A program made the position numbers and the translations under genes. A stretch of 39,034 bases of DNA from a virus: the UHGV virus genome UHGV-0388326, one strand, 5' to 3'. The notes below the pieces were generated by a model that searched no databases, was not told where the DNA came from, and saw only the letters and a list, made by a program, of their open reading frames with translations. Below, piece by piece: positions 22,521 to 22,869 of this stretch; within the stretch, counting starts at the first letter, position 1; every line of letters begins with the position of its first letter.

Positions 22521-22778
22521 TTATCTGGTTTGTTTTCGTAATTGTTCGGCACAATAGTCGAGATGTGTTTGCAGATCCTGCATAGACATCTGTGAGCTGG
22601 TGACGTAGTTAATCAGTGCAGTCAGTTCGGCAAGTGGGCCATCGACATTAAATCCATCCTTATCGAGATCCCGGAGTAATTTCATCAAGTGCGATCCCTC
22701 CACCAGTGACCTGACGCCTCCCGGCGTGTGAATCCTTTCGGTAAATCCGTCTTCCAGTGGATAGTGATACTGCTGCAT
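22521..22778 (-). CDS. small protein homologous to C-terminal domain of the antirepressor; candidate SOS-induced antirepressor
   Basis: 85 aa from ATG 22778 (GGAG RBS); aligns with Ant C-terminus (IH.P.GV..L.E.S.LM.LL..L..DG..V.G..AELT, D.QTH..Y); LexA box 22 nt upstream. Confidence 0.6.
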   Translation of the reverse strand: MQQYHYPLEDGFTERIHTPGGVRSLVEGSHLMKLLRDLDKDGFNVDGPLAELTALINYVTSSQMSMQDLQTHLDYCAEQLRKQTR

Positions 22779-22799
22779 CTTATCTTCTCCATGCAATAA

Positions 22800-22815
22800 C
22801 TGTATATTTATACAG
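22800..22815. promoter_or_regulatory. LexA (SOS) box
   Basis: CTGTATATTTATACAG = CTGT-N8-ACAG with AT-rich spacer, flanked aaCTGT...ACAGta. Confidence 0.8.
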
Positions 22816-22854
22816 TAGCAAATAATTTGTTTGCTATCCAGCACGTTTTGCAAA

Positions 22855-22869
22855 TTACCAGAAAGGTAA
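22855..22869. promoter_or_regulatory. TTACC-N5-GGTAA site
   Basis: TTACCAGAAAGGTAA. Confidence 0.5.

What the first reader, a model, noticed from the sequence alone, without database searches (positions are those of the whole stretch)
22521..22869. Perfect LexA box in front of a small gene homologous to the antirepressor C-terminal domain
CTGTATATTTATACAG (22800-22815) is a near-consensus SOS box and lies about 22 nt upstream of an 85-aa ORF (start 22778) whose sequence aligns with the C-terminal third of the Bro-N antirepressor at 21495-22205. The candidate repressor (33656-34240) shows two HTH domains and no recognisable LexA-like autocleavage domain. Together this predicts induction by an SOS-controlled antirepressor rather than repressor self-cleavage, as in coliphage 186 Tum or Gifsy-type phages, but with a domain shared with a Bro-N protein. 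A TTACC-N5-GGTAA site sits just upstream (22855-22869), so the gene may be doubly controlled.
Basis: partly seen in the sequence, partly recalled or inferred. Interest (0 to 1): 0.8.

Follow-up and report, generated by a model that had tools for sequence, protein, structure and literature searches.

The report
Known LexA-controlled phage antirepressor gene
This is the E. coli-phage copy of a small DNA-damage-switched protein (Ant) that wakes a dormant epsilon15/phiV10-type phage by pulling its repressor off the DNA; the mechanism was already worked out and crystallised in Salmonella phage SPC32H, so the finding is real but not new.

Summary
The SOS box is unique in the window: AACTGTATATTTATACAGTA, 22798-22817, 18/20 to the E. 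coli consensus, with none expected by chance. It lies 21 nt upstream of an 85-aa gene (22778..22521, minus strand).

That protein is 88% identical to the antirepressor Ant of Salmonella phage SPC32H (PDB 5D50 chain E). The repressor at 34240..33656 is the SPC32H Rep homologue (42% identity). It has HTH domains only and no LexA-type cleavage domain.

The window is a complete phiV10/epsilon15-like (Uetakevirus) genome, and ant sits where it does in SPC32H. The SOS box, a promoter footprint (TGGATA-N17-TACTGT) and the TTACC-N5-GGTAA site are conserved in all 10 related phages compared.

So this is the LexA -> Ant -> Rep antirepression switch of Kim & Ryu 2013 and Kim et al. 2016.

What I add:
- TTACC-N5-GGTAA is a genome-wide operator (15 sites against 0.67 expected). 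The epsilon15 record already annotates these sites as repressor sites.
- The Bro-N protein's C-terminal domain is a true Ant paralogue.
- The Bro-N gene sits behind isrK and C4 RNAs, a P1 immI-like module.

Verdict: observation confirmed, interpretation supported, already known, low interest.

The parts
22521..22778 (-). ant: 85-aa small antirepressor, orthologue of SPC32H Ant
   Evidence: 88% identity and E 4e-47 to PDB 5D50 chain E 'Anti-repressor protein'. Same position and orientation as SPC32H ant, between the virion genes and the tailspike. PHROG 450.
22787..22790 (-). Shine-Dalgarno GGAG of ant, 8 nt before the ATG
   Evidence: Direct reading. GGAG is conserved in alignment A1.
22798..22817 (.). 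LexA (SOS) box AACTGTATATTTATACAGTA; core CTGT-N8-ACAG at 22800-22815
   Evidence: Unique in the window and 18/20 to the consensus, with 0 expected. Half-sites are conserved in 10 related phages.
22812..22840 (-). Inferred ant promoter: -35 TGGATA (22840..22835), 17-nt variable spacer, -10 TACTGT (22817..22812) overlapping the SOS box
   Evidence: Phylogenetic footprint in A1. Both hexamers and the 17-nt spacing are conserved while the spacer sequence varies. This is inferred and not mapped. The consensus scan did not call it.
22855..22869 (.). Operator-type palindrome TTACCAGAAAGGTAA in the ant/tailspike divergent region
   Evidence: Conserved at this position in all 10 phages. The equivalent epsilon15 site, 19895-19911, is annotated 'protein_bind: repressor'.
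22475..22489 (.). Operator TTACCTCAAAGGTAA immediately upstream of the isrK promoter
   Evidence: The arrangement operator-A-TTTACA-N17-CATAGT is conserved in the E. coli phages TL-2011b and ZX5, Enterobacter phage Tyrion and the two Klebsiella phages; phiV10 keeps the operator and CATAGT but has lost the TTTACA stretch.
22362..22438 (-). isrK-like sRNA with intrinsic terminator (22384..22368 plus a U run)
   Evidence: Rfam RF01394, 63.5 bits against a gathering score of 50. Terminator. The promoter TTTACA-17-CATAGT (22473..22445) places the start at 22438.
22254..22337 (-). C4-type antisense RNA in the leader of the Bro-N gene
   Evidence: Rfam RF01695, 66 bits against 45. Loop UACCACUUAGG (22298..22288) is complementary to CUAAGUGG at the Bro-N ribosome-binding site (22224..22217) and to a copy inside isrK (22398..22390), by direct reading.
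21495..22205 (-). Bro-N antirepressor (236 aa) whose C-terminal domain (about 155-231) is an Ant paralogue
   Evidence: Pfam Bro-N at residues 17-112. The C-terminus hits 5D50_E at E 1.2e-13 and the small Ant at E 8e-16. It is 80% identical overall to ZX5 ORF4, and identical from about residue 76 to the end. ZX5 ORF4 overexpression cut lysogens about 1000-fold (PMC9782041).
33656..34240 (-). rep: 194-aa repressor, SPC32H Rep homologue, no autocleavage domain
   Evidence: E 4e-42 to 5D50 chain A. 42% identity overall. Using my own approximate domain boundaries, identity is about 54% for the DNA-binding domain and 47% for the C-terminal domain. Pfam finds HTH only.
34296..34358 (.). Three operators between rep and the cro-like gene: 34296-34310, 34313-34327 (2 mismatches), 34344-34358 (1 mismatch). 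The last lies in the spacer/-10 of TTGATT-N17-GAATAT.
   Evidence: SPC32H and epsilon15 show a matching 17 + 30 bp arrangement.
34395..34625 (+). cro-like gene (76 aa), divergent from rep
   Evidence: PHROG 35 'transcriptional repressor', E 9e-13.

Best explanation
The window is a phiV10/epsilon15-like temperate podovirus that uses the SPC32H-type antirepression switch.

In the lysogen, host LexA sits on the SOS box at 22798-22817. The box overlaps the -10 and start region of the ant promoter and keeps ant silent.

DNA damage activates RecA, LexA cleaves itself, and ant is transcribed. The 85-aa Ant, a tetramer in SPC32H, binds the C-terminal domain of the non-cleavable repressor Rep. It breaks the Rep tetramer into dimers that leave the TTACC-N5-GGTAA operators. 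The early promoters open and lytic growth starts.

Shown here: orthology of Ant and Rep to the crystallised pair, absence of a cleavage domain in Rep, and the presence, uniqueness and conservation of the SOS box.

Inferred: LexA occupancy, the exact promoter, Ant-Rep binding in this phage, and that Rep or Cro is the protein that reads TTACC-N5-GGTAA.

A second, accessory route is likely. The Bro-N protein carries a paralogous Ant domain and is held in check by an isrK/C4 RNA leader, as in P1 immI, rather than by LexA.
For: - Ant is 88% identical to 5D50_E.
- Rep is homologous to 5D50_A and 5D4Z.
- Rep has only HTH domains.
- The SOS box is unique and near-consensus.
- The SOS box, TGGATA-N17-TACTGT and the operator are conserved in 10 phages from E. 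coli, Salmonella, Enterobacter and Klebsiella, while the sequence between them varies.
- Synteny with SPC32H ant and rep is identical.
- Published mechanism, second-hand. PMC7380047 states that LexA self-cleavage leads to an Ant that inhibits the repressor, citing Kim & Ryu 2013. [quoted passage not shown] PMC9986798 gives the Rep domain order DBD-MDD-CAD, with CAD binding Ant.
- Operator set: 15 sites against 0.67 expected, all intergenic, with 3 in the rep/cro region. The same motif and positions occur in SPC32H, epsilon15 and BUCT711. The epsilon15 record annotates them as repressor sites.
Against: - Nothing was measured in this phage.
- Rep is only 42% identical to SPC32H Rep while Ant is 88% identical, so cognate binding is inferred rather than shown.
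- The ant promoter is weak by consensus (-10 TACTGT) and was not called by the promoter scan.
- The primary SPC32H papers are not in the library. Details of LexA control come from my memory of the abstracts and from second-hand citations.
- The ZX5 study of a near-identical phage tested only the Bro-N protein and reported spontaneous induction, not SOS induction.
Confidence: 0.9

Rival explanations
1. The TTACC-N5-GGTAA site at 22855-22869 does not regulate ant. It might serve the divergent tailspike promoter, or act as one anchor of Rep-mediated DNA looping. In that case ant has a single regulator, LexA.
For: The site centre is about 57 bp upstream of the inferred ant start, outside the core promoter (footprint). 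Similar sites precede late or structural units such as terminase, portal, lysis and integrase. Rep's C-terminal domain is described as a p53-like tetramerisation/DNA-looping fold.
Against: The site keeps a fixed position relative to ant's TGGATA and SOS box in all 10 phages. The sequence between the site and the tailspike gene is poorly conserved. I found no convincing rightward promoter overlapping it. The same operator-then-hexamer juxtaposition (GGTAA-N1-TTGCAA / TTTACA) occurs at the isrK promoter.
Confidence: 0.4
2. The Bro-N/Ant-C protein is the main inducer in this E. coli lineage. The small LexA-controlled Ant would then be redundant or minor.
For: ZX5 ORF4, the Bro-N protein with an identical C-terminal two-thirds, reduced lysogens about 1000-fold when overexpressed. 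It carries the same Ant domain.
Against: The small ant, with its SOS box, is present in every phage of the group. The Bro-N cassette is absent from SPC32H, epsilon15, BUCT554 and BUCT711 and is frameshifted in phiV10. No SOS box lies near the Bro-N gene. In SPC32H the small Ant alone accounts for induction (Kim & Ryu 2013, cited).
Confidence: 0.1
3. The 85-aa ORF is a decaying duplicate of the 3' end of the Bro-N gene and has no function.
For: It is 42% identical to the Bro-N C-terminus, which lies 300 bp away.
Against: It is far better conserved across genera (58-100% identity in 35 phage records) than expected for a pseudogene. It is full length relative to the crystallised Ant. It has its own Shine-Dalgarno sequence, promoter footprint and SOS box. 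It exists in phages that have no Bro-N gene.
Confidence: 0.02
4. The SOS box controls the divergent tailspike gene rather than ant.
For: The box lies in a divergent intergenic region.
Against: It is 21 nt from the ant ATG and about 160 nt from the tailspike ATG. It overlaps the conserved leftward -10.
Confidence: 0.03

Closest known systems
Salmonella phage SPC32H Ant/Rep antirepression system (Kim & Ryu, J Virol 2013; Kim et al., PNAS 2016; PDB 5D50, 5D4Z)
   Same: Orthologous Ant (88% identity), homologous Rep, the same gene positions, an SOS box at the same place before ant, and the same TTACC-N5-GGTAA sites.
   Different: The host is E. coli. Rep has diverged to 42% identity. This phage additionally carries the isrK-C4-Bro-N/Ant-C cassette and cargo genes between ant and the virion operon, which SPC32H lacks.
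Coliphage 186 Tum and Gifsy-1/-3 GfoA/GfhA (LexA-controlled antirepressors; Shearwin 1998; Lemire 2011, PMC3121763)
   Same: The same logic: a non-cleavable repressor, and a small antirepressor gene behind an SOS box.
   Different: No sequence relationship was detected here. Searches with Ant against PDB, Pfam and PHROGs return only the SPC32H family. From my memory of the abstract, Kim & Ryu call SPC32H Ant a structurally distinct class. No direct comparison with Tum was run.
Phage N15 (AntC under LexA, plus the immA antA/antB locus under CA RNA)
   Same: Two antirepressor routes in one phage: one SOS/LexA-controlled and one controlled by a c4-like RNA (my knowledge; Mardanov & Ravin 2007).
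   Different: The proteins are different. Here the two antirepressors share one homologous repressor-targeting domain.
P1/P7 immI (c4 RNA-icd-ant) and Gifsy-1 isrK-orf45-anrP (PMC4825925)
   Same: The Bro-N gene is preceded by Rfam isrK and C4 RNAs. The C4 loop is complementary to the downstream ribosome-binding site and to an upstream copy. A repressor operator lies at the promoter, like Op51 of P1.
   Different: The antirepressor's C-terminal domain is the SPC32H-Ant type. In P1 the target is C1. Regulation was not tested here.
E. coli phage vB_EcoP_ZX5 ORF4/ORF21 (PMC9782041)
   Same: A near-identical phage. Its small Ant is 100% identical. Its Bro-N protein is 80% identical overall and identical from about residue 76 to the end. 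Its repressor and Bro-N anti-repressor were tested by overexpression.
   Different: That study did not recognise the small ant (annotated as hypothetical), the SOS box, or the link to SPC32H (0 mentions of LexA or SPC32H).

Membership tests
SPC32H-type Ant/Rep antirepression system | Small (about 86 aa) Ant homologous to SPC32H Ant | tested here: met
   E 4e-47 and 88% identity over residues 2-84 to PDB 5D50 chain E.
SPC32H-type Ant/Rep antirepression system | Cognate Rep with an N-terminal DNA-binding domain, a middle HTH-like dimerisation domain and a C-terminal tetramerisation/Ant-binding domain, and no peptidase S24 domain | tested here: met
   Full-length alignment to 5D50_A at E 4e-42, 42% identity. 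Pfam finds HTH only. The domain scheme is taken from PMC9986798.
SPC32H-type Ant/Rep antirepression system | LexA box immediately upstream of ant | tested here: met
   Unique, 18/20 to consensus, 21 nt from the ATG. At the same place in SPC32H and epsilon15.
SPC32H-type Ant/Rep antirepression system | LexA box overlaps the ant promoter | tested here: inconclusive
   The conserved TGGATA-N17-TACTGT footprint puts the -10 over the box. No start site was mapped and the consensus scan did not call the promoter.
SPC32H-type Ant/Rep antirepression system | Synteny: ant lies between the virion operon and the tailspike, divergent from the tailspike; rep is divergent from a cro-like gene | tested here: met
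   Compare (SPC32H ant 19676-19936, tsp 20134; rep 33739-34335) with the window.
SPC32H-type Ant/Rep antirepression system | Ant physically binds Rep and releases it from DNA; ant expression is LexA-dependent | not testable with these tools
   Needs pull-down or EMSA and reporter assays.
LexA/lambda-CI-type self-cleaving repressors | C-terminal peptidase S24 domain with an Ala-Gly cleavage site | tested here: not met
   No S24 hit in Pfam, PHROG or NCBIfam for Rep.
186 Tum / Gifsy antirepressor family | Sequence homology to Tum/GfoA | not tested
   No Tum sequence was compared directly. Database searches with Ant returned only SPC32H-type proteins.
186 Tum / Gifsy antirepressor family | SOS-box-controlled antirepressor acting on a non-cleavable repressor | tested here: met
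   This is a functional analogy only.
P1 immI / isrK-anrP type RNA-controlled antirepressor module (for the Bro-N gene) | C4 antisense RNA and isrK RNA in the leader, above the Rfam gathering scores | tested here: met
   C4 66 bits against 45; isrK 63.5 bits against 50. Both accompany the Bro-N gene in 5 of 5 other cassette-bearing phages.
P1 immI / isrK-anrP type RNA-controlled antirepressor module (for the Bro-N gene) | C4 loop complementary to the ribosome-binding site of the downstream gene | tested here: met
   Loop UACCACUUAGG (22298..22288) pairs with CUAAGUGG (22224..22217), which overlaps the GGAG of the Bro-N gene. A second copy lies at 22398..22390.
Bro-N + ANT (PF03374) modular antirepressors | Bro-N N-terminal domain | tested here: met
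   PF02498, E 3e-19, residues 17-112.
Bro-N + ANT (PF03374) modular antirepressors | C-terminal ANT/KilAC domain PF03374 | tested here: not met
   No PF03374 hit. The C-terminus is instead the SPC32H-Ant-type domain.

The most novel reading that the evidence does not exclude
The small LexA-controlled Ant may be the free-standing form of a repressor-targeting specificity domain. That domain is shuffled onto the C-termini of the classic antirepressor N-terminal modules: Bro-N, AntA, Rha and ORF6N.

This phage carries both forms. Two antirepressors would then aim the same fold at one Rep but respond to different inputs: SOS via LexA, and an isrK/C4 RNA circuit. Each sits behind a Rep operator, so Rep would restrain its own antagonists.

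No terminator-like hairpin was found between the ant stop and isrK. SOS-driven ant transcripts could therefore run into isrK and couple the two routes.
Probability: 0.35. Interest if true: 0.4.

Novelty: already known. Interest (0 to 1): 0.18.

Why it matters
The finding does not change what is known. LexA-controlled antirepression of a non-cleavable Rep was described and solved structurally for the orthologous SPC32H proteins.

Its practical value is for annotation. The small ant gene is labelled 'hypothetical protein' in phiV10, ZX5, TL-2011b and RefSeq E. coli genomes, and 'unknown function' in PHROG 450. The module occurs in about 10% of complete E. coli genomes (535 of 5426). The ZX5 study of a near-identical phage overlooked it.

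The modest new point is that the Bro-N antirepressor and the small Ant share one domain, and that this domain recurs behind several N-terminal antirepressor modules. That gives a testable handle on how modular antirepressors choose their repressor.

Tried and rejected
- Reading the primary SPC32H papers by DOI and PMC id, and the epsilon15 genome paper, failed because they are not held. The mechanism is therefore cited second-hand and from my memory of the abstracts.
- I planned a covariation test: does the operator motif change with Rep in heteroimmune relatives? It could not be run. TTACC-N5-GGTAA is invariant from E. coli to Klebsiella phages despite 42% Rep identity.
- The sigma-70 consensus scan found no ant promoter. 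I used the phylogenetic footprint instead. An alternative promoter, TTGCAA-N17-ACAAAT next to the operator, was rejected because its -10 is not conserved in Tyrion or BUCT554.
- The search for homologous proteins returned only close stand-alone Ants. The exhaustive profile search was needed to see the fused architectures.
- The 126-aa extended ORF and the 241-aa GTG start for the Bro-N gene were rejected in favour of the starts preceded by a Shine-Dalgarno sequence.
- I did not predict structures, because an 88%-identical crystal structure exists.
- The first Rfam call on nine loci exceeded the size limit.

Full report
**What the window is.** The 1.7 kb around the finding matches E. coli phages HEMP4 (97%), ZX5 (95%) and phiV10 (92%). 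The tailspike N-terminus and gene order follow epsilon15 and SPC32H. At 39,034 bp the window is about the size of a whole genome of this type. I therefore read it as a complete, or nearly complete, Uetakevirus-type temperate podovirus genome.

**Checking the observation.** Every element is present.
- CTGTATATTTATACAG lies at 22800-22815. Only three CTGT-N8-ACAG sites occur in the window, and the other two have G+C-rich spacers.
- The 20-mer AACTGTATATTTATACAGTA (22798-22817) differs from the E. coli consensus at 2 positions. It is the only match in the window at up to 3 mismatches, with none in 100 shuffles.
- The gene runs 22778..22521 on the minus strand (85 aa). GGAG lies 8 nt before the ATG, and the box edge is 21 nt from the ATG.
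- The protein aligns with residues 155-228 of the Bro-N protein (22205..21495): 42% identity, E 8e-16.
- The repressor candidate is on the minus strand (34240..33656, 194 aa). It has an HTH_3 match at 106-147, a weak HTH at 21-61, and no S24 peptidase domain.
- TTACCAGAAAGGTAA is at 22855-22869.

**What it is.** The 85-aa protein is 88% identical to chain E ('Anti-repressor protein') of PDB 5D50, E 4e-47. The 194-aa protein aligns end to end with chain A ('Repressor') of the same entry and with 5D4Z: E 4e-42, 42% identity. 5D50 is the Rep-Ant complex of Salmonella phage SPC32H.

In the SPC32H genome, ant (19676-19936, minus strand) sits between the last virion gene and the tailspike, and rep is divergent from a cro-like gene. 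The window has the same layout. SPC32H and epsilon15 carry ACTGTATAAACATACAGT at the same distance from ant.

I aligned the ant upstream regions of ten phages from E. coli, Salmonella, Enterobacter and Klebsiella. Four blocks are conserved:
- the Shine-Dalgarno sequence;
- both SOS half-sites;
- TGGATA (22840..22835) and TACTGT (22817..22812), always 17 nt apart with a variable spacer;
- the TTACC-N5-GGTAA palindrome.

A conserved hexamer pair with a variable spacer is the classic footprint of a promoter. Its -10 overlaps the SOS box.

**How it works.** The mechanism was established for the orthologues. Upon LexA self-cleavage an Ant is made that inhibits the repressor by protein-protein interaction (PMC7380047 citing Kim & Ryu 2013). 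[quoted passage not shown] 2016). Rep consists of an N-terminal DNA-binding domain, a middle dimerisation domain and a C-terminal tetramerisation/Ant-binding domain (PMC9986798).

From my memory of the 2013 abstract, a single-base change in the LexA site overlapping the ant promoter makes the sibling phage SPC32N constitutively lytic. I could not open the primary papers.

Applied to this window: LexA on 22798-22817 blocks P_ant. SOS removes LexA, Ant is made, Rep is disassembled, and the operators are vacated. Orthology, the SOS box and the lack of a cleavage domain are shown here. LexA occupancy, the transcription start and Ant-Rep binding in this phage are inferred. I give the explanation 0.9.

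**The TTACC-N5-GGTAA site.** It is one of 10 exact and 5 one-mismatch copies in the window, against 0.67 expected. All are intergenic.
- Three lie between rep and the cro-like gene: 34296, a two-mismatch copy at 34313, and 34344. The last sits in the spacer/-10 of TTGATT-N17-GAATAT.
- Two lie downstream of rep, before the leftward early genes.
- Others lie before the terminase, portal, lysis, integrase and replication-side units.

SPC32H, epsilon15 and Klebsiella phage BUCT711 have the same motif at equivalent places. The epsilon15 RefSeq record annotates these sites as 'protein_bind: repressor', including 19895-19911 upstream of the ant homologue gp19. So the motif is the operator of the immunity repressor, and presumably of Cro as well. 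This is inferred from position and from that annotation, not from an experiment I could read.

The site's centre is about 57 bp upstream of the inferred ant start. That is outside the core promoter, so Rep control of ant is plausible but unproven. I give about 0.4 to the alternative that it serves the tailspike side or DNA looping instead.

**The Bro-N paralogue.**
- Residues 155-231 of the Bro-N protein hit 5D50 chain E at E 1.2e-13 and PHROG 450, the Ant family, at E 4e-36.
- Among 50,697 phage records, the fused domain turns up in essentially the same set of Uetakevirus-type records as the small Ant: 34 and 35 records respectively.
- The gene is present in the window, HEMP4, TL-2011b, ZX5, Tyrion and Klebsiella phages. 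It is frameshifted in phiV10. It is absent from SPC32H, epsilon15, BUCT554 and BUCT711.
- ZX5 ORF4 is 80% identical overall and identical from about residue 76 to the end. Its overexpression lowered lysogen counts from 10^9 to 10^6 (PMC9782041). That study did not notice the small ant or the SOS box.
- An exhaustive profile search found only 65 cluster representatives of the domain in 1.84 billion proteins. Most are stand-alone proteins of 80-130 aa. Several are C-terminal fusions to Bro-N, AntA, Phage_pRha or ORF6N modules.

The small Ant thus looks like the free-standing version of a repressor-targeting domain used by modular antirepressors.

**RNA control of the Bro-N gene.** Between ant and the Bro-N gene, on the minus strand, Rfam finds an isrK-like sRNA (22438..22362, 63.5 bits) ending in a terminator, and a C4 antisense RNA (22337..22254, 66 bits).
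- A promoter-like TTTACA-17-CATAGT (22473..22445) places the start exactly at the isrK 5' end.
- The operator at 22475-22489 abuts its -35. This arrangement is conserved in TL-2011b, ZX5, Tyrion and the two Klebsiella phages; phiV10 keeps the operator and CATAGT but has lost the TTTACA stretch.
- The C4 loop UACCACUUAGG is complementary to CUAAGUGG over the Bro-N ribosome-binding site and to a copy inside isrK. The leader is strongly structured, z = -4.9.
- isrK and C4 accompany the Bro-N gene in all five other cassette-bearing phages examined.

This matches the P1 immI layout and the Gifsy-1 isrK-orf45-anrP locus (PMC4825925).

**Comparison and novelty.** The system passes every sequence-testable membership criterion of the SPC32H Ant/Rep family. 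It works like 186 Tum, the Gifsy antirepressors and N15 AntC, but no homology to them was detected or tested. It is not a self-cleaving repressor system.

Nothing in the core finding departs from published knowledge, so I rate it 'already known' with low interest. The residual value is threefold:
- An annotation gap: the gene is 'hypothetical' in phage and RefSeq records, and the module is found in 535 of 5426 complete E. coli genomes.
- The shared-domain, two-input architecture. I rate this at 0.35 probability as a functional design, with moderate interest if true.
- The contrast between Ant at 88% and Rep at 42% identity. By my approximate domain boundaries, the DNA-binding domain is about 54% and the C-terminal domain about 47% identical. 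This suggests a conserved Ant-binding surface, or cross-reactive antirepressors.

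Noticed in passing
window 22254-22438 (minus strand): isrK-like sRNA (RF01394) followed by C4 antisense RNA (RF01695) forms the leader of the Bro-N antirepressor gene. The C4 loop is complementary to the Bro-N ribosome-binding site and to a copy inside isrK. This is a P1 immI / Gifsy-1 isrK-anrP type module next to the LexA-controlled ant.
   Followed up: yes
window 760, 778, 3887, 21415, 22475, 22855, 26263, 28440, 33522, 33584, 34296, 34344, 34681, 36627, 36689 (15-mers): TTACC-N5-GGTAA is a genome-wide, strictly intergenic operator-type motif: 15 sites against 0.67 expected. 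It occurs at equivalent positions in SPC32H, epsilon15 and Klebsiella phage BUCT711. The dispersal resembles the P1 C1 operators rather than a lambda-like two-locus operator set.
   Followed up: partly
window 778-792 and 36689-36703: Two operator copies abut start codons and overlap the likely Shine-Dalgarno sequences: before the terminase small subunit ATG at about 793, and before the ATG at 36707. The same is seen in SPC32H (36034) and epsilon15 (30-44). The reason is unknown.
   Followed up: no
proteins P0121, P0131, P0174, P0176: The SPC32H-Ant-type domain has no Pfam model. It also occurs as the C-terminal domain behind AntA (PF08346), Phage_pRha (PF09669) and ORF6N (PF10543) modules, not only Bro-N. 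Only 65 cluster representatives were found in 1.84 billion proteins.
   Followed up: partly
L004 (phiV10) 4071-4750: In phiV10 the Bro-N gene is split by a frameshift inside the Ant-like C-terminal domain (PhiV10p23 plus p22). The accessory antirepressor is therefore probably inactive in the type phage.
   Followed up: partly
window 22521-22778 versus 33656-34240: Ant is 88% identical to SPC32H Ant, but Rep is only 42% identical. By my approximate boundaries the DNA-binding domain is about 54%, the middle domain about 32% and the C-terminal domain about 47% identical. The unequal divergence of the partners is unexplained; possible causes are a conserved interface, mosaicism or cross-reactive Ant.
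   Followed up: partly
window 22440-22520 (minus strand): No terminator-like hairpin lies between the ant stop codon and the isrK promoter. SOS-induced ant transcripts may therefore read into isrK/C4. A second promoter-like site, TTGCAA-17-TATATT (22517..22489), overlaps the operator at 22475-22489, reminiscent of the tandem P51a/P51b promoters of P1.
   Followed up: no
window 20004-21297: A cargo block absent from SPC32H lies between the virion operon and the Bro-N gene. It holds a 137-aa protein whose N-terminus looks like a lipoprotein signal (LISAC lipobox, read by eye; PHROG 8691), a small membrane-associated protein (PHROG 14503, 'moron') and two minus-strand ORFs of unknown function (PHROG 14518, 14630). 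The last of these is preceded by the operator at 21415-21429.
   Followed up: partly
window 22897-22925 (plus strand): A conserved block lies upstream of the tailspike gene: CATAT...GGTTT...GGTAATAGAAT. It contains a good -10 (TAGAAT) preceded by a single GGTAA half-site. This may be the tailspike promoter. The epsilon15 record annotates an IHF site here.
   Followed up: no
window 3491-3564 (minus strand): A tRNA gene (Rfam 73 bits) lies at the position equivalent to the annotated tRNA-Arg of SPC32H.
   Followed up: no
E. coli RefSeq genomes; PHROG 450: The small ant is annotated 'hypothetical protein' or 'unknown function' throughout, although a crystal structure and functional study of its orthologue exist. 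The module matches in 535 of 5426 complete E. coli genomes.
   Followed up: partly
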